NCBI GenBank assembly: GCA_018657495.1
Contig: JABHXA010000004.1
Location: 83,086 to 147,085, forward strand
Direction of reading: 5' to 3'
DNA from: Fidelibacterota bacterium
Lineage (GTDB): Bacteria; Fidelibacterota; Marinisomatia; SCGC-AAA003-L08; JACNLC01
Length of the DNA: 64,000 bases
The notes beneath the pieces were generated by a model that saw nothing but the letters and a program-made list of their open reading frames with translations, did not search any database and had not been told where the DNA came from. Positions within the stretch are counted from its first letter, which is position 1, and the number at the start of each line of letters is the position of its first letter. The translations under genes and the position numbers were made by a program. This document shows positions 2,162 to 22,183 of the stretch, piece after piece.

Positions 2162-2162
2162 C

Positions 2163-6859: not shown

Positions 6860-6888
6860 ATAAAAAATTTATACAAAAGGAGAATGCA

Positions 6889-7936: not shown

Positions 7937-7982
7937 GCTTAAATAAGCTTCCTCTGGATGAAGATAACCATCTTAAATTTCT

Positions 7983-7998: not shown

Positions 7999-8023
7999 AT
8001 ATATATAAATCTAACTGATCTCA

Positions 8024-8458: not shown

Positions 8459-8886
8459 AAAAACTTTTTATATCTGTTGCAATTGTCTCATTAATCATTT
8501 TGTCATGTTCAGAAACCTCCTCAGGGAATTCTGATTTATATGGTGACAATATCACTATCGAGACATCAACAGCTCTTGCCACCATATTGGCTGATAGAGA
8601 TGCCAATGTGGGAATGGAATTTAAAATAGAAGGCGTCATGGTAGAGGTCTGCCAGAAAAAAGGCTGCTGGATAAATTTTAAAGATGGTGAAGAAATTATT
8701 ACTGTCCGTTTTAAAGACTATGGTTTTTTTATGCCAAAGGACGGAGCCGGCAGAAAAGCAAAAATCCAAGGATTTCTTGTTCACAATACTTTTGAAGAAA
8801 CGAATGATGCCGGCCAGATTATACGTACCGATTCATATGAAATAGTTGCAAGCGCCGTAGAATTGGCCAAGTCTGAAAAGTTCTAA
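8455..8886 (+). CDS. DUF4920-like periplasmic/lipoprotein
   Basis: It has a signal peptide with LSC, and the motif VCQKKGCWINF...RFKDYGFFMPKD fits my recollection of DUF4920. The start overlaps the previous stop. Confidence 0.5.
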   Translation: MKKLFISVAIVSLIILSCSETSSGNSDLYGDNITIETSTALATILADRDANVGMEFKIEGVMVEVCQKKGCWINFKDGEEIITVRFKDYGFFMPKDGAGRKAKIQGFLVHNTFEETNDAGQIIRTDSYEIVASAVELAKSEKF

Positions 8887-8917
8887 TATCTAAATATACT
8901 TACCGTAAAAAAATCTG

Positions 8918-8950
8918 GATGGCAGGATAATAATCCTGTCATCTTTTTTT
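8918..8950 (+). terminator. Rho-independent terminator
   Basis: An 11-bp stem, GATGGCAGGAT (8918-8928) / ATCCTGTCATC (8933-8943) with one G-U pair, is followed by T7 (8944-8950). Confidence 0.8.
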
Positions 8951-9061: not shown

Positions 9062-9136
9062 ATGTCTGCTAAGAGATATTTTCTATTATTTGCTGTATGC
9101 GCTAGTTTATCCATATTTAACACCGCCTATTCTCAA
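9062..9136 (+). other. Signal peptide of the giant protein
   Basis: MSAKRYFLLFAVCASLSIFNTAYSQ has a basic n-region, a hydrophobic core and an AYS-Q cleavage-like site. Confidence 0.7.
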
Positions 9137-12100
9137 GATGATCCGCCTGCTGAATTTGAGTACAATCAGTCCTCCCAGCAGGCTTTTTATTTCCTACAAT
9201 CTGCCAATATTGAATCTGTTGAATTGGCAGCTGATGACTGGATAGCTGTATTTAAAAATGGCGTCTGCGTTGGTGCAGCAATCTGGGAAGGTCTTAATAC
9301 AACATTAACGGCGCAGGGAGACCAGGGTGAAGATTGGACAGTTGGTTACCTTGTTGACGGCGATATCCCTGATTTCGTTGTATATGATGCATCGGAAGGG
9401 ATATTTCTTGACCAAGTTATGGCCAGTGATGTCCATGATATTAATGATGTCCCTATTAGTCTTGAATGGCATAGTGGTGGTCCATTTATTTTCATTGGCT
9501 CATTAGATGCTTATATCCGACCACTTGAATTTATTTTTAATCAATCCTCCTTACAGGCAAATTATTTCATAATCTCAGCCGTGATCAATACCAGCGAAAT
9601 CAGTACGGATGACTGGATCGGTATTTTCAACGGTGATATATGCGTCGGTGCTGCTCAATGGGCCGGTGAATGGACCCTCGTTCCTGCCATGGGTGATAAT
9701 GGCTTAGACTGGACGGTAGGTTATATGGAAAGTGGGGGAATCCCATCATTCCAGATTTGGGATGCATCCATTGATTCAATTTTTACAACCACTGAAACCA
9801 CAGGTGTAGATCCAGGTCTCGAATGGGCCAATTTGGCTTTTATTAATATTGACCAATTAGCTGCTATAACTGTTGATTGTAATGGAGATGATGGCGGCAG
9901 CGCTATTCTTGATGAATGCGGTAACTGTGTTGAGGGTAGTACAGGTTTACTTTTTAATTATGCCATGGATTGTCTTGGTGTCTGTGAAGGAACAGCAGTT
10001 GAAGATTGTGCTGGCGTGTGTGATGGTTCGTCATTAGAAGATGATTTTGATGGTTGTTGTGAAGAGTTTACCACTTTTTATGCGGATACTGACATTGACA
10101 CCTTTGGTGATCTTGAAAATAGCATTCAGGCTTGTGACCTTCAAGATGGTTATGTTGCCAACTCCAATGACTGTGATGATACAAATGTAAATATAAATCC
10201 GGATGCTACTGATGCAAATTGCGATGGTGTTGATGATAATTGTAATGATGTCTCAGATGATCAATATGGTGCAACTGCTACTGTTTGTGGTGTCGGTGTT
10301 TGTGAGTCAAATGGTGTTTTAGATTGTATAGATGGTTTTGAAATCGATTCCTGCGTTGAAGGTGACCCTACCGGTGACGATACAGATTGCAATGGTTTTG
10401 ATGAAGATTGCAGTGGCACAGCCGATGATAATTATGTAGCGCCTGACACCGAATGTGGTGAAGGTGTATGTTTCTCAACTGGTATATTGGAATGTATTGA
10501 TGGTAGCCCATTTGATACTTGCGAAGAAGGATTACCCGCCGGTGATGATACCGATTGTAACGGTATTGACGAAGATTGCAGTGGCGGTGCAGATGATAAT
10601 TATGTAACGACTGACACTGAATGTGGTGAAGGTGTATGTTTCTCAACTGGTATATTGGAATGTATTGATGGTGGGGAAGTTGACTCTTGTGTTGAAGGAG
10701 ACCCTACCGGTTTAGATGATGATTGTAATGGTATCGACGAAGATTGTAGTGGCACAGCAGATGATAATTATTTGGCAACCGACACCGAATGTGGTGAAGG
10801 CGTATGTTTCTCTACTGGTACACTAGAATGTATAGATGGTGGGGAAGTTGACTCCTGTGTTGTAGGTGATATTACAGGACTAGATGATGATTGTAATGGT
10901 TTTGACGAAGATTGCAGTGGCACAGCTGATGACAATTATGTATCAACAAGCACAGAATGTGGTGAAGGAGTGTGTTTCTCTACTGGTTCTTTGGAATGTA
11001 TTGATGGTAGTCCATTTGATACTTGCGAGGAAGGATTACCTACTGGTGATGATACTGATTGTAATGGTGTTGATGAAGATTGTGCAGGTGGCGCAGATGA
11101 TAATTATCTTGCTGCCGAAACTGAATGTGGTGTTGGTGTTTGTATTGCAACAGGATTTTTAGAATGTGTAGATGGTGGGGAAGTTGATTCCTGTGTTGAA
11201 GGTGATCCCGCCGGTGATGATACCGATTGTGATGGGTTGGATGACGATTGCAGTGGGGCAGCGGATGATAATTATGTCGCCACTGCCACTGTTTGCGGAG
11301 TTGGAGTATGCGAATCGATTGGTGTATTAGATTGTATTGATGGCAATGAAGAAAATTCTTGTGTGGAAGGTGAAATAACAGGTGATGACACGGATTGTAA
11401 TGGGTTGGATGACGACTGTAGCGGTTTTGCCGATGATAATTATATCATTGATGATTCATGTTTTGTAGCTGGTGATTGTGTCATTGGCAATGTAGAATCA
11501 AGCTGTATAGATGGTACTCCAACTGAGTGCCTCGCAGGCGAAGATTTTATAGATGAATGCTCAGGTGAATGTTGTGATGGTGATACTGGTATTGAATGTT
11601 CATATTTTAATGCACAGGATGACTTCAGTGGATACTATGATTGTGCCGGTGTTTGTGATGGTTTTAGTTATGAAGATCCATGCGGTACCTGTGATGACGA
11701 TCCTTTAAATGATTGCACATATAGTTATTTTGAGGCAGTTTATGATACAATTCCCGATAATGGGACTTCTCAGTTGATTATTTTTGATGCTGGCATTACT
11801 TCATTATCAATTGGTGATGAAATTGCCATATTTGACGCCGCAGGACTAGATATTACCAATATTGAAAATTGTAATGGCAATATTGGTGAAGTAATGGTTG
11901 CGTCGGGGACATACTGGGGTGGTGTGCAAACTGAGATGGTTGCTACCGGATCTATTGATAATTGCGCCTTTGGCGGTTCAATGATGCCAGGTTGGATATC
12001 CGGCAATTCAATTGTTATCAGAGTATATAAACACGATGAAGAGATTGAATATGAAACTGTAGCCACATACAATGTGGGAAATGGTGTATTCGGTGATATT

Positions 12101-15100
12101 TTTACCAGCGTCGGCGAACTTACCTTAGTCGAAGATCAAAATATTGTTATAAACGAATTTTTCTTTAGAAACAGCAATTCTGATGTACCTGATTATATAG
12201 AATTATATAATACAGAGGATGTAGCTGTTGATTTGGCTGGATGGACAATTAATGGTGAAACAATAGTTTCAGGAATTATAGATTCTGCTGGATATTTCCT
12301 TTTAGCTACTGAAGATCCTTTCTATGATGCCAATGGCACTGAATATTTTGCCGGTGAAAATCTTCCAAACTCTGCCATGGTCGATATTAGCTTAGGTACC
12401 AGTTCCGATGGTTTAATCCTTGTCTCTGCTGTCGGCGCAGTCGTTGATGAAGTATCATATAATATTGACGAATGGCCAACCGGTTCTATTAATAGTGGGT
12501 ATGCTGTTGAATTAAAAAATGAGGATTTTGATAATTCACTGGCTGGAAACTGGGGTCAGGTTGAAGAAACACCAATTGGAACCTATATGTATCTTGATAG
12601 CGGTGACGACTGGGATTTTGGTTCTCCGCTGGCAATAAATACTGTATGGGAAGGACCTATAGAGGGGTGTATGGATTCTCAGGCATGTACTTATGATCCC
12701 TTGGCAAATATAAATGTACCCGAAGATTGCTTATATGATGCCATTTATTATGCCGATGTGGATGGTGATGGTTTTGGCGCTGGAGTTGGTGAGATTTTCT
12801 GTCCTGGTGATGAAACACCAGGTTGGGTCAGTAATACAGATGACCCCGAACCAGATTGCCCAAATATCACACCAGATATTTTACAGGTTGATGATTGTGG
12901 TGTATGTATTTGTTATGATGAAGATAATGAATTCTGTGAACCTACAGAATGGAATGAAGATATGGATTGTGCCGGAGAATGTTTTGGACCTGCTGTTTTA
13001 GACGATTGTTTGCATTGTTCCGGTGGCAACTCTGGACATATAGCCAATTCTGAAATCGATGAATGTAATGTTTGTCCGGAAGGATATTTAGCAATTGACG
13101 GAACTCCTCTTCCTCCTGATCCGGAATATATATATCTAGATGGTCCAGATTGCTTAGAAGTTTGTTTTGGTGATGCCGAGTTTGATGCCTGTGATATTTG
13201 TGAAGGTGGAAATGAAGAAATTCTCCCGGATTTCTGTGTTGGTCCCGACTGTGATTGTGAGGGTGTCTGTTTTGGTGATGCCGAGTTGGCAACATTCTGT
13301 TTAGACACCGATGGTGATGGTCTTGGAAACCCCGGGACAGAATATGAATATTGCGAGGGGCTTCCGGATGGCGGATATGTCCCAAATTGTGACGATGAAC
13401 ACCCTGATTGCTTCGAAAACTTCTTTGATTGTCTTGGTGAATGCGGTGGACCAGCTATAGAAGATTGTGCCGACGAATGTAATGGTAATGCACAAATAGA
13501 AGTTTTCTGTATCGATGAAGATCAGGATGGATATGGTGCATTTGGCTCAGAAACTGAATATTGTGATACCCAACTACCAGATCCAGATTTATGGATAACA
13601 GATTGTACTGACCAATGTGATGATATTTTTGGTATTGTATGTACCAATGTAATGGTAGTGGAAATTGATCCAACAGGTATATCTCAACTTATTATTTTTG
13701 AAAATACCATCACGGGTTTAATACCTGGAGATGAAGTTGGTATATTCGATCTAAATGGTTTGGATGCCACCAATGAAGGCAATTGTGAAGGAAATACTGG
13801 TGAAGTAATGGTTGGTGCCGGTTTATGGGAAGGTGACCAACTCAATATTGCTGCTATAGGTTCCGTTGACAATTGTGCCTTTGGTGCTACGATGCTGCCA
13901 GGTTATGTTAATGGAAATTCAATTGTTGTAAGGGTATACAGACCATCTGATGATATAATTTATGATACCAATCTCACCTTCAGTATAGGTAACGGTGTCT
14001 ATGGAGATATATTCTCTAACATTTCAGAAATTACATTTGCCCAATCTTATGATGTAGTTATCAATGAGTTCTTCTTTAGAAATCAAAATTCAGATGCTCC
14101 TGATTATGTGGAGCTTTATAACAATGAAACTGAAAATGTTGATCTGGCAGGCTGGACATTTAATGGTGAAGTAATTTCCTCTGGTACAATAAGTGCTGGC
14201 GGTTACTTCCTTATATCTATTGATGATCCTTTCTACGATGTCAGCGGTGAAGACTATTTTGCTGGTGTGGATTTTCCAAATAGTGCCTTTGCTGATATCA
14301 GCCTTGGTACCTCTTCTGATGAATTGGTTCTTGTTGCTAACGATGGCACCCCCATTGATGAAGTAAATTATAGTGCCGATGCCGGTTGGCCAACAGGATT
14401 GCCAAATCGCGGTTATGCCGTTGAATTGATTAGTCCAACACTTGATAACAGCCTGTTAATCAACTGGGCCCGTGCCCTTGAAGACCCTGTAGGCAGTTAT
14501 ATGTATAATCCCACTGGTGACGGCTGGGACTTTGGCTCTCCCCTTGAAGTAAATACTGTATTTGAAGAAGACGTCACAGAAGTACTAGGCTGTCCAGATG
14601 TTGATGCATGTAACTTTAATCCTGAAGCCAATATCGATGACGGCTCCTGTGAATACGATGCTACTTATTATGCCGATGTAGATGGTGATGGATTTGGTTT
14701 TGGTGATGGTGTGGTTTTCTGTGGCAATCCTGGCGAAGGTTGGGTAAGTAATAATCTCGATCAAGAAGAAAACTGCTGGAATCCAACACCTGAAACATTA
14801 CTTGTGGATGATTGCGGTGTCTGTAACGGAGAAAATGCCAGTATGGATTGTGCCGGTGTTTGTGATGGTACAGCACTAATCGATAACTGCGATGAATGTG
14901 TCCTCCCAGGAAATGAATGCGTACAAGACTGTAACGATGTTTGGGGTGGAAGTGGTCAACCAGATGCTTGTGGCGTTTGTGATGGTGACAACTACGAATT
15001 AGTCCCCGATTTCTTTGTTGGTCCTGATGCTGATTGCGCCGGTGTTTGTGATGGTGCCAGTTATGAAGATGAATGTGGTGTGTGTGATGATGACCCATCA

Positions 15101-18100
15101 AACGACTCATTCTATAACAGTTCTGAAGACTTTGGCGGAATATATGATTGTGCTGGTGTTTGTGATGGAGACAGCTACTTTGACGAATGCGGAGTTTGTG
15201 ATGATTTAGTCGAAAACGATAATGCTGATATGGATTGTCTTGGTGTCTGTTATGGTCCAAATCTGGAAGATGAATGTGGAACATGTGATGACGACACTCT
15301 CAATGATTGTATCCAGGATTGTGCTGGCGTCTGGGGTGGAGAATCATACCCGGATGAATGCGGTGTCTGTGATGATGACCCTGCAAACGATTCCTATTGG
15401 AATAGTTCAGCAGATTTTGGTGGAGTTTACGATTGTGCAGGAGATTGTTTTGGAGCCCTTATAGTTGACGATTGTGGTATTTGCGATGGTGACGGCAGCA
15501 GCTGCGATACGCCAATTGTCCTTGATCAGAGTTTATTTACTGACGAAAATACTGCACTTGATTTTGCCCTGACAGCACTCGATGTTGATCCATTAGAATT
15601 TCTACTTGTTGTTGATCCTCTCAGCGGTTCATTAGAATGCACTGATGGTACCGATATAAATTGTACCTATACACCAAATACAGGGTTTAGTGGAATTGAT
15701 CAATTCCAATACCAGGTGTTTGATGGTACATGGTTATCAAATCTTGGTACAGTGACAATCACTGTAAATAGCATTTCATCTCCACCAGTAGCTGAATCTT
15801 TTGGTCTGGAACTTGATGAAGATCAGGATCTTCTCTTGTATCTCATTGGCTCCAGTGGTGATGTTGATGATGATATGCTTGAATTCCAGATTACGTCATT
15901 TCCATCAAATGGTGACTTGAGCGCTGATCGTGCTCTTGAATCATATACCTATTCTCCATTTGACAATTACAATGGATCAGATAGTTTCACCTATACCGTA
16001 TTTGACGGTAACCTCACATCAGAAGAAGCGACTGTAGATCTAAATATCCTGCCTATGAACGATGCCCCGATTATAGAATCTGTTGATCCAGTTGGCGATA
16101 GCTTTGAAATTTTTGAGAATACATTTATCGATATAACCGTTAATGTTAACGAAGTGGATGGCGATGACTTTACTCTTGAATTCCCAGGTATGCCAGTCAA
16201 TGGTGAGCTGACTTATTTTGCAGGTCAGGATAACTTTATTTATACACCAACTCCTGGCTTTTCCGGTGGTGAGGTGATTACTGTACAAGCGGTAGAAACT
16301 GCAACTGGGGATTTACTTGCCTCCGCTCCAGCTGTAATTGAAATTACAATTCTACCTATCGAGCATACTCCAATTGCCTATGATGTCATTGAAGATTTAT
16401 TTGAAGATAGTGAAAATTTCCATATTTCTCTGATTGCCATTGATCCAGATGGGGATGCAATTGAATTCTTTATTGATCAGTCTCCAGATCATGGTTTACT
16501 GAATCTACATGGGGATTATGTGGAATATTCACCAGATGAAAATTATAATGGTACAGATGAATTCACATATTATGCCAGTGATGGTTCAAGTGATAGCGAT
16601 CCTGCAACTGTACATATTAATGTCATTCCTGTGAACGATCCACCAGATATTGCCGATGAGAATTTTACCGATGTCTCAGATGGATTTACATTTAACCTTC
16701 CCACAACTGACATTGATGGCGATGATCTTTCCGTAACATTTATTCCAGAAGTTGACGGTATTGGTCTCGCTTATCTTGGTGGTACGGTTACTCCACTTGG
16801 TAATGGTGAATATATGTACAATGTGGCAAATAATATGACAGACTGGGATATGATATTTATGAATGTTACTGATGGTGAAATAACCGTCAACGCCAGTATA
16901 CAGTTCAACATCACAGGTGGATTACAGCTTATGTCACGTGATGCGCCAAATGCCCTGGATCAATCAGTAGATGTGACAGAAGATGTTGTATCGGTTATCA
17001 CCCTCATTGGTGTTGACATTGGTTTTATCATGGATAATACTGCCACAGTTCAAATTACTCAGGACCCAATTAACGGATCAATTTCCGTACCGGTTCTGCA
17101 GAATGTTTTTGTCGAAAATGTCGCCAACTGGAATCTGAATTATACACCAAATGGAGATTTCTTTGGTTCGGATAGTATCAAATATCAGGTTACAAATCCA
17201 AATAATACCGATGGCAATACATCTGGTGAAGGAACCGTTTTGATAACTGTGCATCCAGTAAATGATATTCCATCTTTAACCGTTATTTCAAATACGGCAA
17301 TTGATGAAGATACTCAGACGACTTTAACGATGAATGGCACAGATCCCGATAATACATTAGTAATGACAGCCCTTTCAACGGATCCATCCAATCTGACCCT
17401 AGAGATTTCCGGTCTGGATTTGACTTTAGTACCGGCGGCAAATTATAATGGCGCTGTTGTGGTAACTGCAACCGTTACGGAAGCTGATGGCGATGATAAT
17501 TATACGGCTGTTCAGTCATTTACCTTGACGATAGATCCAATAAATGATACACCGGTAATGACACCGGTCACAGATATTTCAATGGCTGAAGAAGGTGTTT
17601 ATAATCTATCTATGAGTGCCTCAGATATTGATGGTGATAATTCCTTCACCTATAATGCTAGCTCAGATAACAATAGTTTAATTAGTCTGGCAATCGATGG
17701 CAATCAATTAACAATTACAGGTGAGCTAGATATGTCTGGTACAGCCACGGTTACTGCAAATGTAGATGACGGTGGCAATGTAAACTCTCAATCTGAGAGT
17801 ATTACTTTTGATGTAACTGTAAATAATACCAATGACGCACCGCTTGTAAATGTCAGCACGCCGGGAGCTGTGAATGAAGATGGCGCTAATGTTGTGCTCA
17901 ACTTTACACCAAGCGATGCGGATGATGATCAGGTAACTATAACATACAGTTATAATAATGATCAATTATTCCCAGAAGGATCGGTAGACTTAAATCTGTC
18001 TGTTGGAGATAGTGGTACTGCAAGAACGATTACAATGAATCCTGCTGAAAATGCCAGTGGAACGGCCATTTTAATTATTACTGCAGATGATGGTTCAGTT

Positions 18101-21100
18101 ACCTCATCTGAACAGGTAACTATTACTGTGAATGCAACAAACGATGCACCTGAAATGGTTGCCATTGGCAATCAAAATGTCAATGAAGACCAGGTGAAAA
18201 CAGTGGCTCTCGCCGCCAGTGATGCCGATAATCTTGCCAATGAACTGACATTCTCTGTTACCGCTGGAACAAATATAACCGCCTCTGTAAGCGGTAATGA
18301 ACTTACCTTGACCCCGGATGCAAATTATAACGGTTCCGAATCATTCACTGTAACCGTGACAGATGGTACCAATGAAGATTCTTCTACCTTCCTGTTGACA
18401 GTAGATCCAGTACCGGATTCACCAGTGATAACTTCAACTGCCGGTATAGAAGCTGTAGAAGGTATCGAATATACCTACCAGGTTGTTGCTACCGATGTCG
18501 ATGAAGAATCTCTAGAATATAGTTTATCCTCTGAACCTGCTGGTATGGCTGTTGACGGTCTCGGGTTAATCACCTGGACACCTGCAGACGGAATTTCAAC
18601 ATCCGGCACAGTGACACTCACAGTTGCCGATCCTGGTGGATTGGTGGCAATAGAGAATTTCACAATAAGTGTCAGTGATGTGGATTGTAATGGTCTTCAA
18701 GGTGGAACTGCGTTAGAAGATGATTGTGGTGATTGTGTGGACCCAGCAAACTTTAATGATGCCATGGATTGTAATGGTGTCTGCGATGGCACTGCTGTAA
18801 CAGATAATTGTGGTGACTGTGTCGAAGGTGATACAGGTTTAACATTTGATGGTGCCATGGATTGTAATGGCGTTTGTGATGGTACTGCTGTCACAGATGA
18901 ATGTAGTAATTGTGTTGATCCTTCCGACTTTAACGAAGCCATGGATTGTAATGGCGACTGTGATGGAACTGCCTTAACCGATGATTGTGGTGACTGTGTG
19001 GAAGGTAATACTGGCATCACATACAACGAAGCTATGGATTGTGCCGGTGTCTGCGATGGTGTCTCTTATGAAGATGATTGCGGCATCTGTGATAACAATG
19101 TTGACAACGATAATATTGATATGGATTGTGACGGTGTCTGTTTTGGTCCCAATCTGGAAGATGAATGTCTTACCTGCGATGACGATCCATTAAATGACTG
19201 TGTACAGGATTGTGCCGGTATTTGGGGTGGTACTGCATACGAAGATGAATGTGATGTCTGTGATGATGACCCACTAAATGACTGTGTACAGGATTGTGCC
19301 GGTGACTGGGGTGGTGATGCCTATGCAGATTTATGCGGTATATGTGATGATGATCCATTAAATGATTCGTTTTATATTGACCAAACAAATTTTGGTGGTG
19401 CCTATGACTGTAATGAAGTCTGCGAAGGAGATTGGGTCACTGATGACTGTGATGACTGTGTAGATCCTGAAAACTTTGATGAAGCCGATCTTGGTTGTGG
19501 CTGTGATGAACCAGCAGCAATTGAATACTGTCATGATACCGATAGTGATGGCAATGGTAATCCAGGCACTCAGACAGAATATTGTGCTGACGAATTACCA
19601 TTTGGCTGGGTAGTCAGTGATTCATGTGATGATCCCGATCCTGATTGTGCCACGGATGACACCGATGATTGTGGCGTTTGTGCAGGTAACAATGCCGATA
19701 TGGATTGCGATGGAGTTTGTTTTGGTAATTCATTGGAAGATATGTGTAACACTTGTGATAACAATCCTGATAACGACTGTGAACAGGATTGTGCTGGTGT
19801 TTGGGGTGGTGACTCTCTGACAGATGATTGCGGTATTTGTGATAATGATCCACTAAATGATAATGCTGACATGGATTGTGCTGGCGTTTGTTTTGGTGAT
19901 TCATTAGAAGATAATTGCGGAGTTTGTGATAATGATCCACTAAATGATGATGCCGACATGGATTGTGCTGGTGTTTGTTTTGGATCTTCACTTGAAGATA
20001 TGTGTGGAGTTTGTGATAATAATCCTGATAATGATTGTGAACAAGACTGTGCTGATGTCTGGGGTGGTGACTCACTGACAGATAATTGTGGTGTTTGTGA
20101 TAATGATCCACTAAATGATGATGCTGACATGGATTGTGCTGGCGTTTGTTTTGGTTCAAACCTGGTAGACGAATGCGGTGTTTGTGATGATGATGACACG
20201 AATGATTGTATCCAGGATTGTAACGATGTTTGGGGTGGTGATTCGTTAGAAGATGCCTGCGGTGTCTGTGATAATAATCCTGACAATGATAATTTAGATG
20301 ATGGTTCTGGCTTTATTACTGGACCTGATGCCGATTGCGCTGGTGTCTGTGATGGACTAAGTCTTGAAGATGAATGCGGAGATTGTGACGATGATGATAC
20401 TAATAATTGTGTACAGGATTGTAATGGCACATGGGGTGGATCATTTGTAATGGATGACTGTAGTGATTGTGTAGATCCTGCCGATTTAAATGGAGCCATG
20501 GATTGTAATGGTGTCTGTGATGGATTAGCTGTTACTGATGATTGCGGTGATTGTGTTGAAGGTGATACAGGTGCTGATTTCAATGATGCAATGGATTGTG
20601 CTGGAGTCTGTGATGGATTAAGCCTAGTAGATGAATGTGGCGTTTGTGATGATGATGACACAAATAATTGTACTCAGGATTGTGCCGATGTTTGGGGCGG
20701 TGATTCATTAGAAGATGCCTGTGGTGTCTGTGATAATAATCCTGACAACGATAATCTTGATGATGGTTTTGGTTTTATTACCGGACCTGATGCCGATTGT
20801 GCTGGTATATGTTTTGGAACTTCTGAAGTAGATGAATGCGGAGTCTGTGACGATGATGATACCAATGATTGTGAACAAGATTGTAATGGAACCTGGGGCG
20901 GATCATTTGTGATGGATGACTGCGCTGATTGTGTCGATCCGGCAAACTTTAATGACGCCATGGATTGTACTGGTCTTTGCGATGGTACTTCAATAGAGGA
21001 CGATTGTGGCGATTGTGTCGATCCTGCAGATTTTAATGCTGCCATGGATTGTAATGATGTCTGTAACGGTCTCAGTCTTGAAGATGATTGCGGTGTTTGC

Positions 21101-22183
21101 GATGAAGATCCATCAAATGATAATGATGATATGGATTGTGCCGGTGTTTGTTTTGGAACTGCTGCTGAAGACGATTGCGGATTCTGTGATGATGATAGCA
21201 GCAATGACTGTGCACTTGGTTGTATTGATCCATTAGCTGATAATTATGATCCTGATGCTGACACTGATGATGGATCATGTACATTTACCGATCTCATACC
21301 GCCAAATCAGTTTAATGATGTGACCTATTCGAGTCCAACTGGGGATATAACACTGTTCGTCCCCGGTAATAACCTGATGTTTGATGGAACAGCTCTTGTT
21401 GATTCAGTATTTTTCACTATCGGTTCATATATACCAGGTGGAATTGACCCGGATAAGGAAACATTAAAATCGTTTATTTCATCTGATTTCAGTGCTTTGC
21501 AGAATGTACTGATGTTCTGGCCTTATAGTATATATTTTGCCAATCCAGTTGAAATTACCATACCTTATGATATTTCATTGTCAAGAGGGGGGCAGGCCGT
21601 AACAAATGTTATACTTGGTCTTGATTCACCTTCAGATAATACATGGACAGTTGTTAATGGCAGTAATTGTGCTGCCGGCTCATGTAGCGGTAGTGTGAAT
21701 TCATTTGGAATTTATACCGTTGCTACCATGTTAGTGGATTGTAATGGTACACCTGGTGGTGAAGCATACGTTGATAACTGTGGTATTTGTAATGATGATC
21801 CAGATGATGATTGTATTCAGGATTGTGACGGCGACTGGGGCGGTACAGATGAAATTGATGATTGTGGTGTATGCGGTGGTGATAATTCATGCGCATTTGG
21901 AATCACAAACTTCCATGTTTATCCGAACCCAATAGATGCATCAGCTGATAGCTATTTCTATTTTGAAACAACAAAGGCCTTTGTCTTTGGCAGCATCAAA
22001 ATTTTTGATTTTGCTGGTAATGAAGTGGCTAAAATCTCTCTTGTCGGCGATGTTCTTGGTGAACAGAATATCCAATGGACAGATATGCAGGGGGTCGGCC
22101 GTGGAGGATATGTGGCTGTCCTTGTCTTGCGGGATGCTGATGGTACCAGGTTGAAGGCATATTCAAAAATTGCTGTCAAATAA
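9062..22183 (+). CDS. Giant (4,373 aa) secreted mosaic surface protein, putative T9SS cargo/adhesin
   Basis: A single uninterrupted 13,122-nt ORF with an AAGGAG SD, a signal peptide and a C-terminal YPNP-type tail. Internal modules are listed as separate features below. Confidence 0.9.
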   Translation: MSAKRYFLLFAVCASLSIFNTAYSQDDPPAEFEYNQSSQQAFYFLQSANIESVELAADDWIAVFKNGVCVGAAIWEGLNTTLTAQGDQGEDWTVGYLVDGDIPDFVVYDASEGIFLDQVMASDVHDINDVPISLEWHSGGPFIFIGSLDAYIRPLEFIFNQSSLQANYFIISAVINTSEISTDDWIGIFNGDICVGAAQWAGEWTLVPAMGDNGLDWTVGYMESGGIPSFQIWDASIDSIFTTTETTGVDPGLEWANLAFINIDQLAAITVDCNGDDGGSAILDECGNCVEGSTGLLFNYAMDCLGVCEGTAVEDCAGVCDGSSLEDDFDGCCEEFTTFYADTDIDTFGDLENSIQACDLQDGYVANSNDCDDTNVNINPDATDANCDGVDDNCNDVSDDQYGATATVCGVGVCESNGVLDCIDGFEIDSCVEGDPTGDDTDCNGFDEDCSGTADDNYVAPDTECGEGVCFSTGILECIDGSPFDTCEEGLPAGDDTDCNGIDEDCSGGADDNYVTTDTECGEGVCFSTGILECIDGGEVDSCVEGDPTGLDDDCNGIDEDCSGTADDNYLATDTECGEGVCFSTGTLECIDGGEVDSCVVGDITGLDDDCNGFDEDCSGTADDNYVSTSTECGEGVCFSTGSLECIDGSPFDTCEEGLPTGDDTDCNGVDEDCAGGADDNYLAAETECGVGVCIATGFLECVDGGEVDSCVEGDPAGDDTDCDGLDDDCSGAADDNYVATATVCGVGVCESIGVLDCIDGNEENSCVEGEITGDDTDCNGLDDDCSGFADDNYIIDDSCFVAGDCVIGNVESSCIDGTPTECLAGEDFIDECSGECCDGDTGIECSYFNAQDDFSGYYDCAGVCDGFSYEDPCGTCDDDPLNDCTYSYFEAVYDTIPDNGTSQLIIFDAGITSLSIGDEIAIFDAAGLDITNIENCNGNIGEVMVASGTYWGGVQTEMVATGSIDNCAFGGSMMPGWISGNSIVIRVYKHDEEIEYETVATYNVGNGVFGDIFTSVGELTLVEDQNIVINEFFFRNSNSDVPDYIELYNTEDVAVDLAGWTINGETIVSGIIDSAGYFLLATEDPFYDANGTEYFAGENLPNSAMVDISLGTSSDGLILVSAVGAVVDEVSYNIDEWPTGSINSGYAVELKNEDFDNSLAGNWGQVEETPIGTYMYLDSGDDWDFGSPLAINTVWEGPIEGCMDSQACTYDPLANINVPEDCLYDAIYYADVDGDGFGAGVGEIFCPGDETPGWVSNTDDPEPDCPNITPDILQVDDCGVCICYDEDNEFCEPTEWNEDMDCAGECFGPAVLDDCLHCSGGNSGHIANSEIDECNVCPEGYLAIDGTPLPPDPEYIYLDGPDCLEVCFGDAEFDACDICEGGNEEILPDFCVGPDCDCEGVCFGDAELATFCLDTDGDGLGNPGTEYEYCEGLPDGGYVPNCDDEHPDCFENFFDCLGECGGPAIEDCADECNGNAQIEVFCIDEDQDGYGAFGSETEYCDTQLPDPDLWITDCTDQCDDIFGIVCTNVMVVEIDPTGISQLIIFENTITGLIPGDEVGIFDLNGLDATNEGNCEGNTGEVMVGAGLWEGDQLNIAAIGSVDNCAFGATMLPGYVNGNSIVVRVYRPSDDIIYDTNLTFSIGNGVYGDIFSNISEITFAQSYDVVINEFFFRNQNSDAPDYVELYNNETENVDLAGWTFNGEVISSGTISAGGYFLISIDDPFYDVSGEDYFAGVDFPNSAFADISLGTSSDELVLVANDGTPIDEVNYSADAGWPTGLPNRGYAVELISPTLDNSLLINWARALEDPVGSYMYNPTGDGWDFGSPLEVNTVFEEDVTEVLGCPDVDACNFNPEANIDDGSCEYDATYYADVDGDGFGFGDGVVFCGNPGEGWVSNNLDQEENCWNPTPETLLVDDCGVCNGENASMDCAGVCDGTALIDNCDECVLPGNECVQDCNDVWGGSGQPDACGVCDGDNYELVPDFFVGPDADCAGVCDGASYEDECGVCDDDPSNDSFYNSSEDFGGIYDCAGVCDGDSYFDECGVCDDLVENDNADMDCLGVCYGPNLEDECGTCDDDTLNDCIQDCAGVWGGESYPDECGVCDDDPANDSYWNSSADFGGVYDCAGDCFGALIVDDCGICDGDGSSCDTPIVLDQSLFTDENTALDFALTALDVDPLEFLLVVDPLSGSLECTDGTDINCTYTPNTGFSGIDQFQYQVFDGTWLSNLGTVTITVNSISSPPVAESFGLELDEDQDLLLYLIGSSGDVDDDMLEFQITSFPSNGDLSADRALESYTYSPFDNYNGSDSFTYTVFDGNLTSEEATVDLNILPMNDAPIIESVDPVGDSFEIFENTFIDITVNVNEVDGDDFTLEFPGMPVNGELTYFAGQDNFIYTPTPGFSGGEVITVQAVETATGDLLASAPAVIEITILPIEHTPIAYDVIEDLFEDSENFHISLIAIDPDGDAIEFFIDQSPDHGLLNLHGDYVEYSPDENYNGTDEFTYYASDGSSDSDPATVHINVIPVNDPPDIADENFTDVSDGFTFNLPTTDIDGDDLSVTFIPEVDGIGLAYLGGTVTPLGNGEYMYNVANNMTDWDMIFMNVTDGEITVNASIQFNITGGLQLMSRDAPNALDQSVDVTEDVVSVITLIGVDIGFIMDNTATVQITQDPINGSISVPVLQNVFVENVANWNLNYTPNGDFFGSDSIKYQVTNPNNTDGNTSGEGTVLITVHPVNDIPSLTVISNTAIDEDTQTTLTMNGTDPDNTLVMTALSTDPSNLTLEISGLDLTLVPAANYNGAVVVTATVTEADGDDNYTAVQSFTLTIDPINDTPVMTPVTDISMAEEGVYNLSMSASDIDGDNSFTYNASSDNNSLISLAIDGNQLTITGELDMSGTATVTANVDDGGNVNSQSESITFDVTVNNTNDAPLVNVSTPGAVNEDGANVVLNFTPSDADDDQVTITYSYNNDQLFPEGSVDLNLSVGDSGTARTITMNPAENASGTAILIITADDGSVTSSEQVTITVNATNDAPEMVAIGNQNVNEDQVKTVALAASDADNLANELTFSVTAGTNITASVSGNELTLTPDANYNGSESFTVTVTDGTNEDSSTFLLTVDPVPDSPVITSTAGIEAVEGIEYTYQVVATDVDEESLEYSLSSEPAGMAVDGLGLITWTPADGISTSGTVTLTVADPGGLVAIENFTISVSDVDCNGLQGGTALEDDCGDCVDPANFNDAMDCNGVCDGTAVTDNCGDCVEGDTGLTFDGAMDCNGVCDGTAVTDECSNCVDPSDFNEAMDCNGDCDGTALTDDCGDCVEGNTGITYNEAMDCAGVCDGVSYEDDCGICDNNVDNDNIDMDCDGVCFGPNLEDECLTCDDDPLNDCVQDCAGIWGGTAYEDECDVCDDDPLNDCVQDCAGDWGGDAYADLCGICDDDPLNDSFYIDQTNFGGAYDCNEVCEGDWVTDDCDDCVDPENFDEADLGCGCDEPAAIEYCHDTDSDGNGNPGTQTEYCADELPFGWVVSDSCDDPDPDCATDDTDDCGVCAGNNADMDCDGVCFGNSLEDMCNTCDNNPDNDCEQDCAGVWGGDSLTDDCGICDNDPLNDNADMDCAGVCFGDSLEDNCGVCDNDPLNDDADMDCAGVCFGSSLEDMCGVCDNNPDNDCEQDCADVWGGDSLTDNCGVCDNDPLNDDADMDCAGVCFGSNLVDECGVCDDDDTNDCIQDCNDVWGGDSLEDACGVCDNNPDNDNLDDGSGFITGPDADCAGVCDGLSLEDECGDCDDDDTNNCVQDCNGTWGGSFVMDDCSDCVDPADLNGAMDCNGVCDGLAVTDDCGDCVEGDTGADFNDAMDCAGVCDGLSLVDECGVCDDDDTNNCTQDCADVWGGDSLEDACGVCDNNPDNDNLDDGFGFITGPDADCAGICFGTSEVDECGVCDDDDTNDCEQDCNGTWGGSFVMDDCADCVDPANFNDAMDCTGLCDGTSIEDDCGDCVDPADFNAAMDCNDVCNGLSLEDDCGVCDEDPSNDNDDMDCAGVCFGTAAEDDCGFCDDDSSNDCALGCIDPLADNYDPDADTDDGSCTFTDLIPPNQFNDVTYSSPTGDITLFVPGNNLMFDGTALVDSVFFTIGSYIPGGIDPDKETLKSFISSDFSALQNVLMFWPYSIYFANPVEITIPYDISLSRGGQAVTNVILGLDSPSDNTWTVVNGSNCAAGSCSGSVNSFGIYTVATMLVDCNGTPGGEAYVDNCGICNDDPDDDCIQDCDGDWGGTDEIDDCGVCGGDNSCAFGITNFHVYPNPIDASADSYFYFETTKAFVFGSIKIFDFAGNEVAKISLVGDVLGEQNIQWTDMQGVGRGGYVAVLVLRDADGTRLKAYSKIAVK
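9140..9870 (+). repeat. Two tandem A-type copies of an unnamed ~120-aa module
   Basis: FEYNQSSQQAFYF...DDWIAVFKNGVCVGAAIWEG...GYLVDGDIPDFVVYD aligns with FIFNQSSLQANYF...DDWIGIFNGDICVGAAQWAG...GYMESGGIPSFQIWD. Confidence 0.6.
10169..11551 (+). repeat. Eight tandem MopE-like putative metal-binding cysteine-rich units (~168 nt each)
   Basis: The first unit reads DCDDTNVNINPDATDANCDGVDDNC. Seven units of DDTDCNG[FIVL]D[ED]DCSG.ADDNY...ECGEGVCFSTG.LECIDG follow. The period of 168 nt was checked between 10376 and 10544. Stretches of more than 55 nt are nearly identical between units. Confidence 0.7.
11735..12660 (+). other. Module 1: B-type unnamed domain followed by a lamin-tail domain (LTD)
   Basis: The B-type part reads SQLIIFDAGITSLSIGDEIAIFD...NCNGNIGEVMV...DNCAFGG. 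The LTD signature is VINEFFFRNSNSDVPDYIELYNTEDVAVDLAGWTING. Confidence 0.7.
13655..14580 (+). other. Module 2: a second B-type domain + LTD pair
   Basis: SQLIIFENTITGLIPGDEVGIFD...NCEGNTGEVMV...DNCAFGA is followed by VINEFFFRNQNSDAPDYVELYNNETENVDLAGWTFNG. Confidence 0.7.
15500..18420 (+). repeat. Array of about ten cadherin-like / Ig-like ~95-105-aa domains
   Basis: Successive modules end in MNDAP, IEHTP, VNDPP, VNDIP, INDTP, TNDAP, TNDAP and VPDSP. Each contains a Y.P..(N/D)(Y/F).G.D.F.Y...DG pattern. Confidence 0.65.
18420..18680 (+). other. He_PIG / dystroglycan-type Ig-like domain
   Basis: PVITSTAGIEAVEGIEYTYQVVATDVDEESLEYSLSSEPAGMAVDGLGLITWTPA. Confidence 0.55.
18680..21230 (+). repeat. 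Long array of ~22-27-aa Cys4/Asp-rich units
   Basis: The recurrent pattern is DC[AN]G[VI]C[DF]G.[SA]..D[DE]CG[VDI]CD[DN][DN]P.ND. Shorter arrays occur at about 9870-10060, 11545-11730, 12860-13650, 14800-15500 and 21735-21895. Confidence 0.7.
21911..22180 (+). other. C-terminal Por-secretion-type (T9SS CTD-like) domain
   Basis: FHVYPNPIDASADSYFYFETT...IKIFDFAGNEVAKI...YVAVLVLRDADGTRLKAYSKIAVK* forms a ~90-aa beta-sandwich-like tail with the YPNP start. Confidence 0.6.

What the first reader, a model, noticed from the sequence alone, without database searches (positions are those of the whole stretch)
9062..22183. 4,373-aa mosaic giant protein combining metal-binding, lamin-tail, cadherin-like and Cys4/Asp modules
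Seen in the sequence: one uninterrupted 13,122-nt ORF. In order it contains a signal peptide, two A-type modules, eight MopE-like units and a B-type module + LTD. Next comes a GC.D..AC.Y.P.A...D..C.Y knot with YYADVDGDGFG, then a second B+LTD copy of the same block. After that come about ten cadherin-like domains ending in xNDxP, a He_PIG-like Ig domain and ~2.5 kb of Cys4/Asp units. A ~150-aa unassigned region (21285-21735) and a YPNP tail close the protein.
Established knowledge: LTD, MopE-type putative metal-binding repeats, cadherin-like repeats and Por-type tails are known extracellular modules.
Inference: it is a disulfide- and Ca2+-stabilised surface fibre or adhesin. I do not know of a characterised protein with this particular combination and order.
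Basis: partly seen in the sequence, partly recalled or inferred. Interest (0 to 1): 0.65.

Follow-up and report, generated by a model that had tools for sequence, protein, structure and literature searches.

The report
Giant acidic secreted surface-fibre protein
This is a real 4,373-residue, extremely acidic, cysteine-rich protein of an uncultured marine Marinimicrobia bacterium. It is most likely exported by the type IX secretion system to form a long surface fibre or adhesin; the kind is familiar, but several of its building blocks have no description in the libraries I searched.

Summary
ORF 9062..22183 (+) is uninterrupted and encodes 4,373 aa. The exact protein occurs on 92 contigs in about 140 blocks of the public collection, and its DNA repeats are only 60-87% alike, so a chimeric assembly is unlikely.

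- signal peptide, then two A modules
- eight 56-aa MopE-type units
- two B+LTD blocks
- ten cadherin-like domains and one He_PIG domain
- about 40 four-cysteine/Asp units
- a 143-aa orphan domain
- a divergent T9SS C-terminal sorting domain.

New here:
- The host is Candidatus Marinimicrobia (Neomarinimicrobiota); NCBI calls the protein only "tandem-95 repeat protein".
- A and B are related beta-sandwiches (AF2 pLDDT 97 for A) with no Pfam or PDB match.
- The four-cysteine unit has no Pfam or PDB match, yet matches about 3,600 protein clusters, many listed hits being ocean-metagenome fragments.
- The gene is followed by a PorV/PorQ-family outer-membrane barrel and a B-module T9SS protein. This trio recurs in two other genomes.

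No catalytic domain was found. D+E is 21.5% and K+R 0.7%.

Best reading: a T9SS-exported surface fibre or adhesin, stabilised by disulfides and Ca2+ and possibly held by its own barrel. It is a new variant of a known kind, of moderate interest.

The parts
8917..8944 (+). Terminator-like hairpin with a T-run after the upstream DUF4920 gene. It implies that the giant gene starts its own transcription unit.
9062..9133 (+). Signal peptide (aa 1-24, MSAKRYFLLFAVCASLSIFNTAYS)
   Evidence: Read from the sequence: basic n-region, hydrophobic core and an AYS|Q cleavage-like site. No signal-peptide predictor was available.
9140..9859 (+). Two A modules (aa 27-148 and 153-266): beta-sandwich domains with no Pfam family
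   Evidence: 58 copies in 21 of 121 related proteins. AF2 pLDDT 97.4, pTM 0.90. No PDB fold match below E 0.09. No Pfam hit.
9869..10219 (+). Cys-rich linker (aa 270-386) with three- and four-cysteine units and one near-canonical MopE motif
   Evidence: PF11617 at 23.7 bits, below the cut-off of 27, at aa 370-400
10220..11545 (+). Eight tandem 56-aa MopE-type units (aa 387-828): CxGxD(D/E)DCxG..DDNY...CGxGxC...G...C..G....C
   Evidence: 168-nt DNA period at 63-76% identity. Units listed. The same unit occurs in 32-62 copies in PF11617-annotated giants P0004, P0007, P0008 and P0011.
11735..12655 (+). B module 1 (aa 892-1022) followed by lamin-tail domain 1 (aa 1023-1198)
   Evidence: B. B is related to A by hhalign (88% probability, E 3e-6). 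LTD PF00932 at 3.6e-12.
12662..13645 (+). Knot motif with the YYADVDGDGFG (DxDxDG) unit (aa 1201-1290), then a mixed Cys-rich stretch (to aa 1528)
   Evidence: no Pfam family
13646..14581 (+). B module 2 (aa 1529-1659) followed by lamin-tail domain 2 (aa 1658-1840)
   Evidence: 58% identical to block 1
14585..15508 (+). Second knot/DxDxDG unit (aa 1842-1922) and a four-cysteine/Asp array (to aa 2149). This stretch holds the site that varies among assemblies (aa 1929-1990).
15509..18418 (+). Ten cadherin-like / Big_9 / tandem-95 Ig-like domains (aa 2150-3119). Six of the linkers read xNDxP.
   Evidence: Big_9 3.5e-76, Cadherin_5 6e-35, Cadherin_4 3e-33. NF012211 1.8e-76.
18422..18682 (+). He_PIG-type Ig domain (aa 3121-3207)
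   Evidence: PF05345 at 3.8e-8, 34.1 bits against a cut-off of 24
18683..21220 (+). Main four-cysteine/Asp array (aa 3208-4053), with units of about 25-31 aa: D-C-x3-C-x-G-x4-D-x-C-G-x-C-D-x-D-x-x-N-D
   Evidence: No Pfam or PDB sequence match. AF2 pLDDT 77.6, pTM 0.39. 3,598 clusters match at E<=1e-3.
21221..21727 (+). Third knot (aa 4054-4079) and a 143-aa orphan domain (aa 4080-4222)
   Evidence: Found in full only in P0001-P0003, with partial matches in P0100 and in both large ORFs of locus L007. No Pfam hit. A stand-alone search found nothing.
21728..21901 (+). Two terminal three-/four-cysteine units (aa 4223-4280), ending in CGVCGGDNSC
21902..22183 (+). Divergent T9SS type-A-like C-terminal sorting domain (aa 4281-4373, starting HVYPNP) plus the stop codon
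   Evidence: TIGR04183 E 0.0019; T9SS M6-like C-terminus 2.4e-4; PorU C-terminus 0.009. FlgD_ig 0.009 and Por_Secre_tail 0.07. hhalign against family CTDs: 90% probability, E 1.6e-6.
22225..23178 (+). 317-aa PorV/PorQ-family outer-membrane beta-barrel, 41 nt downstream; a candidate dedicated partner of the giant
   Evidence: NF033709 at 1.2e-21 (77.6 bits, below the cut-off of 90) and T9SS_PorQ at 4e-14. A small gene in the same position follows the giant in L083; in L007 it is 37% identical to this barrel.
23220..26369 (+). 1,049-aa T9SS cargo built from the same parts (B, B, 25-aa four-cysteine units, B, knot, canonical CTD); a probable operon partner
   Evidence: TIGR04183 1.9e-13; architecture; no terminator-like site between the three genes

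Best explanation
**What it is.** The gene encodes a non-enzymatic, very long cell-surface fibre or adhesin of a marine Candidatus Marinimicrobia (Neomarinimicrobiota) bacterium. The proposed route has five steps, each marked as shown or inferred.

1. **Export to the periplasm (inferred).** The Sec signal peptide takes the protein across the inner membrane.
2. **Folding (inferred).** The roughly 270 cysteines of the MopE-type and four-cysteine units form disulfides there, and the Asp-rich loops load Ca2+. A DsbA-like gene sits two genes downstream of a paralogous giant in the same genome.
3. **Secretion (sequence features shown, transport inferred).** The C-terminal beta-sandwich sorting domain directs the protein through the type IX secretion system.
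4. **Anchoring (inferred).** This CTD is divergent but conserved among orthologues, and a PorV/PorQ-family barrel is encoded immediately downstream in all three genomes examined. I therefore propose that the giant is handed to this cognate barrel and kept on it. That would resemble PorZ on PorQ or SprB with SprF, rather than (or as well as) cleavage by PorU and linkage to anionic LPS.
5. **Surface function (inferred).** The Cys-rich arrays and the 11 Ig-like/cadherin-like domains act as a stiff, Ca2+-loaded, protease-resistant polyanionic stalk. My rough estimate of its length is 100-200 nm. The stalk displays the globular modules (A, A, B-LTD, B-LTD and the orphan domain), which do the binding, whether to particles, polymers, other cells or the co-encoded B-module protein.

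**Support for a spacer role.** Between orthologues the globular domains keep their order, whereas the type and number of Cys-rich units change.
For: **The gene is real.** The ORF and its composition are. The exact protein is on 92 contigs. Its repeats are diverged.

**Host.** NCBI names for the identical protein and its neighbours read Candidatus Marinimicrobia / Neomarinimicrobiota.

**Adhesin-type domains only.** Hits are Big_9, Cadherin_4, Cadherin_5, tandem-95, LTD and He_PIG. No catalytic family appears in any segment.

**CTD.** Several independent weak hits, all at the extreme C-terminus. hhalign gives 90% probability, E 1.6e-6.

**T9SS in the window.** PorV-family barrel at 228 bits, next to a CTD-bearing M6-like protein. 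A weak PorZ-like hit and a GWxTD protein lie downstream.

**Dedicated barrel.**
- NF033709 at 1.2e-21 and T9SS_PorQ at 4e-14.
- The trio of giant, small gene and B-module T9SS protein recurs in L083, the P0003 orthologue from another MAG. It also recurs in L007, a third MAG.
- In L007 the small gene is 37% identical to the window's barrel, and the giant ends in the same CTD type.
- P0014, a paralogous giant in the window's own MAG, has a canonical CTD and no adjacent barrel.

**Stalk role of the Cys-rich arrays.**
- The globular order is conserved: A-A...B-LTD...B-LTD...Cad x11...orphan...CTD.
- The arrays differ: MopE x8 near the N-terminus here, but x15 near the C-terminus in P0003.
- Unit-number variants exist within the population.
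- The AF2 model of four units has local confidence but low pTM, as expected for beads on a string.

**Acidity is specific to the secreted proteins.** The giant has D+E 21.5% and K+R 0.7%. Most other proteins in the window have K+R of about 7-15%.

**Literature.** The T9SS review PMC10202324 describes PorV shuttling, the PorQUZ attachment complex and clustering of type-B cargo genes with PorP/SprF genes. It also states the hypothesis that cognate PorV-like barrels protect a CTD from cleavage.
Against: - There is no expression, localisation or binding data of any kind.
- The CTD falls below the curated thresholds of TIGR04183 and PF18962. BLASTP against the neighbour's canonical CTD aligns only the YPNP motif.
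- The barrel is below the NF033709 cut-off (77.6 against 90 bits).
- The link between barrel and CTD rests on three loci and one negative control.
- Ca2+ binding and disulfide formation are inferred from motifs. Fold matches of the four-cysteine model to LDL-receptor class A repeats are not significant (E about 0.9-5).
- T9SS is best characterised in Bacteroidota. I did not verify that this genome has a complete core apparatus (SprA/Sov, PorK, L, M, N).
- The ligand is unknown. The A module has no informative structural neighbour.
Confidence: 0.7

Rival explanations
1. It is an ordinary T9SS type-A cargo. PorU removes the CTD, and the protein is either linked to anionic LPS or released into the water as a matrix or aggregation protein. 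The neighbouring PorV/PorQ-family barrel is then a general T9SS part or an unrelated porin, not a dedicated anchor.
For: - The CTD resembles type A rather than type B: it matches TIGR04183 and PF18962 weakly and gives no TIGR04131 or CHU_C hit.
- A bona fide PorV lies elsewhere in the window.
- Type-A cargo normally uses PorV and PorU (PMC10202324).
Against: - The barrel sits immediately downstream with no terminator-like site between the genes.
- The arrangement is kept in three divergent genomes, at 37% barrel identity in L007.
- The giant's CTD forms its own conserved subtype: 54% identity between the window protein and P0003, but almost none to canonical CTDs.
- A paralogous giant with a canonical CTD has no adjacent barrel.
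Confidence: 0.25
2. It is a motility adhesin comparable to SprB or RemA of Flavobacterium. In that case it would be secreted by T9SS and then driven along the cell surface to give gliding on particles.
For: It is a giant repetitive T9SS cargo whose gene is followed by a PorV-like barrel gene. This echoes the sprB-sprF arrangement (PMC10202324).
Against: - No gld or spr motility genes were seen in the 64-kb window.
- The barrel matches PorV/PorQ models, not PorP/SprF.
- The CTD is not type B.
- I know of no report of gliding in Marinimicrobia. That rests on my own knowledge, and literature searches returned nothing relevant.
Confidence: 0.07
3. It is chiefly a cation or metal sponge: a polyanionic, Cys- and Asp-rich surface layer that sequesters Ca2+, Cu, Fe or other metals in oxygen-deficient water. 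Adhesion would then be secondary.
For: - D+E is 21.5%, with about 900 net negative charges.
- It carries MopE-type units, named after a copper-binding surface protein.
- DxDxDG loops occur six times.
- Dockerin_1 and TSP_3 (both Ca2+-binding repeats) appear among the precomputed Pfam hits of some relatives.
Against: - The PF11617 matches are below threshold, and that family's 'metal-binding' label is only putative.
- The cysteines fall in regular four- and six-cysteine patterns typical of structural disulfides, not free thiol ligands.
- Eleven cadherin-like domains and two LTDs are typical of adhesins.
Confidence: 0.1
4. The ORF is an assembly artefact: a chimera or a collapsed repeat.
For: - All assemblies are from metagenomes, and no long-read evidence was available.
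- Two single-contig variants differ by whole repeat units.
- One scaffold examined breaks at about 15032-15086 with a 100-N gap.
Against: - The identical 4,373-aa product is on 92 contigs in about 140 blocks of the collection, from NCBI, JGI and ENA records.
- Repeats are only 60-87% identical at the DNA level.
- Orthologues of 4,280 and 5,061 aa share the architecture, and the P0003 locus has the same gene order on both flanks.
Confidence: 0.03

Closest known systems
SprB / RemA of Flavobacterium johnsoniae, and giant T9SS-secreted surface adhesins in general
   Same: A very large repetitive protein with an N-terminal signal peptide and a C-terminal T9SS sorting domain, no catalytic domain, and a gene next to a PorV-like barrel gene (compare sprB-sprF).
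   Different: - No detectable sequence homology to SprB or RemA was seen.
- The CTD is type-A-like, not type B.
- The barrel matches PorV/PorQ models, not PorP/SprF.
- The host is Marinimicrobia, not Bacteroidota.
- No motility genes lie nearby.
- The protein is built largely of disulfide-rich mini-units, which SprB lacks.
Tandem-95 / Big_9 / bacterial cadherin-like repeat adhesins (NF012211, PF17963, PF17892, PF17803), such as the giant proteins of Vibrio and other marine bacteria
   Same: Eleven such domains with xNDxP linkers form the central quarter of the protein. This is the basis of the NCBI name.
   Different: These domains cover only about 24% of the protein. Many of the named relatives carry no T9SS CTD hit, and several carry other modules such as RHS or RTX-type repeats. 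They lack the A, B, LTD and four-cysteine modules.
MopE-related proteins (PF11617 'putative metal-binding motif'), giant Cys-rich repeat proteins of Myxococcota, Chitinophagales and Saprospiraceae
   Same: The 56-aa unit CxGxDxDCxGxxDE...CGxGxC...C...C is the same repeat. It occurs in 32-62 copies in PF11617-annotated proteins.
   Different: Here the units score below Pfam's threshold. They form only 10% of the protein, and no copper-binding function can be inferred from them.
PorZ-PorQ and type-B-cargo-PorP/SprF pairs of the T9SS (cargo retained on a cognate PorV-like barrel)
   Same: A cargo gene directly followed by a PorV/PorQ-family barrel gene, with a CTD subtype that is conserved along with it.
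   Different: The pairing is inferred here from synteny in three genomes only. The cargo is a 4,373-aa fibre rather than a T9SS component.
LDL-receptor class A and thrombospondin type-3 repeats (small disulfide-bonded, Ca2+-binding acidic modules in tandem)
   Same: Short tandem units with a fixed cysteine pattern and Asp-rich loops. LDL-receptor class A repeats are the top fold matches, though not significant.
   Different: No significant sequence or fold similarity. The units have four cysteines in about 25-31 aa, against six in about 40 aa. The resemblance is an analogy, not family membership.

Membership tests
T9SS type A cargo (TIGR04183 / PF18962 C-terminal sorting domain) | The C-terminal 70-90 aa beta-sandwich domain matches the curated CTD model above threshold | tested here: inconclusive
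   TIGR04183 scores 18.1 bits against a cut-off of 23 (E 0.0019). PF18962 gives E 0.07 and FlgD_ig 0.009. Profile-profile comparison with CTDs of related giants gives 90% probability, E 1.6e-6. The YPNP start and the GGYV motif are visible in the sequence.
T9SS type A cargo (TIGR04183 / PF18962 C-terminal sorting domain) | N-terminal Sec signal peptide | tested here: met
   aa 1-24 have a basic n-region and a hydrophobic core. This was read by eye; no predictor was available.
T9SS type A cargo (TIGR04183 / PF18962 C-terminal sorting domain) | The host genome encodes a T9SS | tested here: inconclusive
   PorV-family barrel at 56142-57518 (228 bits). Further CTD-bearing proteins at 23220-26369 and 57531-60176. 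A weak PorZ-like hit. The core parts SprA/Sov and PorK/L/M/N were not looked for outside the window.
T9SS type B cargo (TIGR04131 / CHU_C) with a PorP/SprF partner | A type B CTD and an adjacent PorP/SprF-family barrel | tested here: not met
   The C-terminus gives no type B CTD hit. The adjacent barrel matches PorV/PorQ models and not TIGR03519.
Tandem-95 repeat / Big_9 / bacterial cadherin-like adhesins | Several tandem domains of about 95 aa matching NF012211 or PF17963 above threshold | tested here: met
   NF012211 scores 252 bits against a cut-off of 90, in 9 stretches. PF17963 scores 252.6 bits in 11 stretches. PF17892 and PF17803 are also above threshold.
Lamin-tail domain (PF00932) | Match to the LTD profile above the gathering score | tested here: met
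   Two copies, at 47.1 and 50.9 bits against a cut-off of 34.3
MopE-related / PF11617 putative metal-binding motif | Match to PF11617 above the gathering score (27 bits) | tested here: not met
   The best stretches score 23.7 bits (aa 370-400) and 17.9 bits (within a 56-aa unit). Homology of the 56-aa unit to repeats in PF11617-annotated proteins is clear. The units are therefore MopE-like in sequence but not members by Pfam's own criterion.
MopE-related / PF11617 putative metal-binding motif | Copper or other metal binding | not testable with these tools
   No experimental data. The family name itself says 'putative'.
He_PIG (PF05345) | Match above the gathering score | tested here: met
   34.1 bits against a cut-off of 24 for aa 3115-3207
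PorV/PorQ family (NF033709), for the 317-aa neighbour | Match above the subfamily cut-off (90 bits) | tested here: inconclusive
   77.6 bits, E 1.2e-21; T9SS_PorQ at 52.4 bits; PorV at 16 bits. The N-terminal motif and the terminal aromatic residue of a barrel are visible.

The most novel reading that the evidence does not exclude
The locus would define a previously undescribed cargo-specific branch of type IX secretion outside Bacteroidota. It would consist of three co-inherited elements:
- a family of giant fibres with their own CTD subtype
- a dedicated PorQ-like barrel that retains the fibre at the surface
- a partner protein that shares the B module.

The fibre's stalk would be built from a new class of tandem four-cysteine/Asp Ca2+-binding mini-domains. 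This unit matches about 3,600 protein clusters, many of the listed hits being ocean-metagenome fragments, and has no Pfam or PDB representative. The fibre's tips would carry a new beta-sandwich superfamily (A and B modules).
Probability: 0.3. Interest if true: 0.55.

Novelty: new variant of a known kind. Interest (0 to 1): 0.4.

Why it matters
Marinimicrobia (SAR406) are abundant and uncultured in the dark and oxygen-poor ocean. How they interact with particles is largely unknown.

A conserved 13-kb gene, identical on 92 contigs from many assemblies, is a large investment for one cell. It points to surface attachment or a surface coat as part of their lifestyle.

The analysis also gives three practical leads:
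- two unannotated domain families (the A/B beta-sandwich and the four-cysteine/Asp unit) that could be added to domain databases and would annotate thousands of metagenomic proteins
- a testable case of a type-A-like T9SS cargo paired with its own PorQ-like barrel
- an example of extreme Lys/Arg depletion in secreted proteins.

None of this overturns current ideas. Giant repeat adhesins exported by T9SS are a well-known kind.

Tried and rejected
**Searches that gave nothing useful**
- Whole-protein and per-segment Pfam and NCBIfam scans found no enzyme, toxin, RHS or RTX module. I therefore dropped an enzymatic or toxin reading.
- PDB sequence searches with a 240-aa four-cysteine stretch and with a 27-sequence profile found nothing meaningful.
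- Foldseek against PDB gave only non-significant generic beta-sandwich hits for the A module (TTR-52, SKICH, transthyretin). For the four-cysteine model it gave only non-significant LDL-receptor repeat hits. I did not file either module under those folds.
- BLASTP between the giant's CTD and the neighbour's canonical CTD aligned only YPNP. A profile-profile comparison was needed.
- A stand-alone homology search with the orphan domain returned nothing. Only two structure predictions were allowed, so its fold remains unknown.
- Pfam scans of all A and B module copies found no recurring family.
- Literature searches on Marinimicrobia with T9SS, adhesin, cadherin or giant proteins found no description of this protein.

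**Limits of particular searches**
- The genome-contig scan chose LTD-derived patterns. Most of its 76 loci were therefore generic LTD proteins from other phyla, and only 11 carried B+LTD. The window's own species was not among the representative genomes.

**Hypothesis rejected**
- I tested the idea that the truncated cluster members (2,339-3,429 aa) reflect frameshifts. In the one examined (P0126), the break is a 100-N scaffold gap with 100% identical flanks.
Full report

The window has a single uninterrupted ORF at 9062..22183 on the + strand, starting with ATG and encoding 4,373 aa. An AAGGAG-like ribosome-binding site precedes the start. A terminator-like hairpin with a T-run at 8917-8944 closes the upstream DUF4920 gene.

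The composition is extreme: D 15.3%, G 10.7%, C 6.2% (273 Cys) and only 30 Lys+Arg (0.7%). Most other proteins in the window have 7-15% K+R, so the bias belongs to this protein and to a few neighbouring secreted ones, not to the whole proteome.

**2. Could it be a misassembly?**

This is unlikely, for four reasons.
- The exact 4,373-aa sequence is indexed in 140 blocks of the public collection and was seen on 92 contigs, the longest 254 kb.
- These records come from NCBI MAGs (for example GCA_018674335.1), JGI metagenomes and ENA assemblies.
- The internal DNA repeats are well diverged. The 168-nt units are 63-76% identical and the 75-nt four-cysteine units 60-80%; the best long pair is 87%.
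- Orthologues of 4,280 aa (82% identity) and 5,061 aa (about 40-50%) have the same architecture.

There are two caveats.
- Two single-contig variants lack exactly one 56-aa unit (aa 518-573; 4,317 aa) or two four-cysteine units (aa 1929-1990; 4,311 aa).
- In the one 'split' form examined (P0126), the break is a 100-N scaffold gap at about window 15032-15086, with flanks 100% identical to the window.

Unit number at one or two sites is therefore either polymorphic or hard to assemble. The overall structure is solid.

**3. Anatomy**

| aa | Module |
|---|---|
| 1-24 | signal peptide |
| 27-148, 153-266 | A modules |
| 270-386 | Cys-rich linker with one near-canonical MopE motif (PF11617, 23.7 bits; cut-off 27) |
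| 387-828 | eight 56-aa MopE-type units |
| 892-1198 | B + lamin-tail domain (LTD) |
| 1201-1290 | knot 'GCxDxxACxYxP...C.Y' followed by YYADVDGDGFG |
| 1291-1528 | mixed Cys-rich stretch |
| 1529-1840 | second B + LTD (58% identical to the first) |
| 1842-1922 | second knot |
| 1923-2149 | four-cysteine units |
| 2150-3119 | ten cadherin-like / Big_9 / tandem-95 domains; six linkers read xNDxP |
| 3121-3207 | He_PIG Ig domain (3.8e-8) |
| 3208-4053 | main four-cysteine/Asp array (2.54 kb) |
| 4054-4079 | third knot |
| 4080-4222 | orphan domain |
| 4223-4280 | two more Cys units |
| 4281-4373 | C-terminal domain starting HVYPNP |

**4. The unannotated modules**

*A module.*
- There are 58 copies in 21 of the 121 related giants. 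They are typically placed just after the signal peptide and again just before the CTD.
- AlphaFold2 with a 35-sequence alignment gives a very confident beta-sandwich (pLDDT 97.4, pTM 0.90).
- Foldseek against PDB finds nothing below E 0.09. The top hits are generic transthyretin-, SKICH- and Ig-like sandwiches.
- Pfam finds nothing recurrent.

*B module.*
- There are 11 copies in 6 proteins.
- It is a relative of A with a Cys-pair insertion (hhalign 88% probability, E 3e-6).
- It is also absent from Pfam.
- B+LTD fusions at 44-51% identity occur in 11 loci. These come from uncultured-bacterium MAGs and one Candidatus Neomarinimicrobiota MAG, often several per genome.

*Four-cysteine/Asp unit.*
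- Each unit has invariant D-C...C.G....D.C..C.
- It has no Pfam hit and no PDB sequence relative, even with a profile.
- AF2 gives moderate local confidence with low pTM (77.6 and 0.39), as expected for tandem mini-domains.
- The top fold matches are LDL-receptor class A repeats, which are not significant.
- A profile search of 1.84 billion cluster representatives finds 3,598 proteins at E<=1e-3 and 354 at E<=1e-30.
- In the word-indexed search, many of the listed hits are unannotated TARA Oceans fragments labelled eggNOG NOG267260.

*56-aa unit.* It is the same repeat that occurs in 32-62 copies in PF11617-annotated 'MopE-related' or 'Notch-like' giants.

*Orphan domain.* It is found in full only in the orthologues, with partial matches in P0100 and in both large ORFs of locus L007. 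Its fold is unknown.

**5. Host and genomic context**

NCBI labels the identical protein 'tandem-95 repeat protein [Candidatus Marinimicrobia / Neomarinimicrobiota bacterium]' (MBT3251435.1 and others). The window is ordinary chromosome, carrying mreB, mreC, PBP2, rodA, purH, purN, glyA and mla genes among others.

*Genes immediately downstream.*
- A 317-aa outer-membrane barrel of the PorV/PorQ family lies 41 nt after the giant (NF033709 1.2e-21; T9SS_PorQ 4e-14).
- A 1,049-aa protein follows 41 nt later. It is made of the same parts (B, B, 25-aa four-cysteine units, B, knot) and ends in a canonical T9SS CTD (TIGR04183 1.9e-13).
- No terminator-like site separates the three genes.
- Further downstream lie iPGM, a weak PorZ-like/Reg_prop protein and a GWxTD protein.
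- A bona fide PorV-family barrel (228 bits) and a CTD-bearing M6-like protein lie at 56142-60176.

*Conservation of the arrangement.*
- The neighbourhood ArsR - DUF302 - PepSY_TM - DUF4920 - giant - small gene - CTD protein - iPGM - Reg_prop - GWxTD recurs around the 5,061-aa orthologue P0003 in another MAG (L083).
- The trio also recurs in a third MAG (L007). There the giant has the same C-terminal half and the same CTD subtype, the barrel is 37% identical, and a 3,296-aa protein starting with B+LTD follows.
- P0014, a paralogous giant in the window's own MAG, has a canonical CTD and no adjacent barrel. A DsbA-like gene lies two genes downstream of it.

**6. The C-terminal domain**

Curated models score it weakly. 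TIGR04183 gives E 0.0019 (18.1 bits; cut-off 23), PF18962 gives 0.07 and FlgD_ig 0.009. The C-termini of a T9SS M6-like protein and of PorU give 2.4e-4 and 0.009. All of these hits fall on the last 90 residues.

A profile of the three giant-type CTDs aligns to CTDs of 21 related cargo proteins with 90% probability, E 1.6e-6. No type-B CTD hit was seen.

I read it as a divergent type-A-like CTD subtype. It is conserved among the orthologues (54% identity between the window protein and P0003).

**7. How it most likely works**

*Shown by sequence analysis.*
- A secretion signal at each end.
- Only adhesin-type and structural modules.
- A T9SS context.
- A conserved gene trio.
- Globular domains that keep their order while the Cys-rich arrays change in type and number between orthologues (MopE x8 near the N-terminus here, x15 near the C-terminus in P0003).

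*Inferred.*
- Sec export, then periplasmic disulfide formation and Ca2+ loading.
- T9SS export.
- Retention at the surface, possibly on the dedicated PorQ-like barrel.

The T9SS review PMC10202324 proposes that cognate PorV-like barrels can protect a CTD from cleavage, as with PorZ on PorQ and type-B cargo on PorP/SprF. It also notes that such gene pairs are usually clustered.

The Cys-rich arrays and Ig-like domains would form a stiff polyanionic stalk that presents the A, B-LTD and orphan modules for binding. The ligand is unknown. Candidates are particles, polymers, other cells or the co-encoded B-module protein.

**8. Rivals**

- Standard PorU cleavage with A-LPS linkage or release, the barrel being incidental. 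This is plausible and cannot be excluded.
- A SprB-like gliding adhesin. This is unlikely: no motility genes lie nearby, the CTD is not type B and the barrel is not PorP/SprF.
- A cation or metal sponge. This is possible as a side property, but the MopE label is nominal and below threshold.
- An assembly artefact. This is very unlikely.

**9. Comparison with known families, and novelty**

By function the protein resembles giant T9SS surface adhesins and tandem-95/cadherin-like repeat adhesins. By membership:
- it meets the tandem-95/Big_9, LTD and He_PIG criteria
- it is inconclusive for the type-A CTD models
- it fails Pfam's threshold for PF11617
- it fails the type-B/PorP criteria.

No characterised full-length homologue exists, and no paper in the library describes it.

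I rate it a new variant of a known kind. The features that stand out are the unannotated four-cysteine and A/B module families, the paired B-LTD blocks, the near absence of Lys and Arg, and the conserved cargo-barrel-partner trio. A specialist would find these useful rather than startling, so I set interest at about 0.4.

Noticed in passing
window 23220-26369: The downstream 1,049-aa B-module T9SS protein has tandem 25-aa units (C.GECFGDAY.DDCG.CDGMNADMD). Its length is 1,049, 1,074 or 1,149 aa in different assemblies, steps of 25 aa. One scaffold has a 100-N gap just upstream of the shortened gene call, in the position of this gene. This points to unit copy-number variation or assembly ambiguity.
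   Followed up: partly
window 22225-23178: The 317-aa PorV/PorQ-family barrel scores below the curated cut-off and NCBI calls it 'hypothetical'. A small gene is conserved directly after the giant in two other genomes; in L007 it is 37% identical to this barrel. It may be a cargo-dedicated barrel.
   Followed up: partly
window 56142-60176: A bona fide PorV-family barrel (NF033709, 228 bits) is followed by an 881-aa homologue of the 'T9SS-dependent M6-like inactivated metalloprotease', which carries its own CTD. This is a second barrel-plus-cargo pair in the same window.
   Followed up: partly
window 46013-48829 and 48826-50049: A 938-aa ORF with D+E 20.9% and K+R 3.3% has no Pfam or NCBIfam match. 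It is probably another acidic secreted protein. The next ORF, which overlaps it by 4 nt, is BamG-like (2e-20, below cut-off).
   Followed up: no
locus L086 (GCA_018674335.1, contig JABHAJ010000003.1): The same MAG encodes a paralogous 3,534-aa giant (P0014) with A modules, four-cysteine units, ten cadherin-like domains and a canonical CTD. A DsbA/thioredoxin-like gene lies two genes downstream, which fits periplasmic oxidation of these Cys-rich cargos.
   Followed up: partly
window 28124-30899: A 530-aa protein with weak Reg_prop and PorZ N-terminal beta-propeller hits and a GWxTD-domain protein lie downstream. Both keep the same position next to the P0003 orthologue (L083).
   Followed up: partly
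window 14661-15284, 19570-20661, 19614-20159, 20674-21204 (minus strand): Long minus-strand ORFs lie inside the giant gene. They are most likely shadows of its biased, repetitive codon usage (rich in GAT, GGT and TGT) and not genes.
   Followed up: no
window 6277-8886: A small upstream cluster (ArsR-type HTH, DUF302, Zn-ribbon, PepSY_TM-like, DUF4920 lipoprotein-like) keeps its order upstream of the orthologous giant in L083, where no Zn-ribbon gene is listed. Its relation to the giant, if any, is unknown.
   Followed up: no
locus L007 9926-19813: In another MAG the protein after the PorQ-like barrel is 3,296 aa. It starts with B+LTD and then carries about 13 further B modules separated by knot motifs, so the B module can itself form long arrays.
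   Followed up: partly
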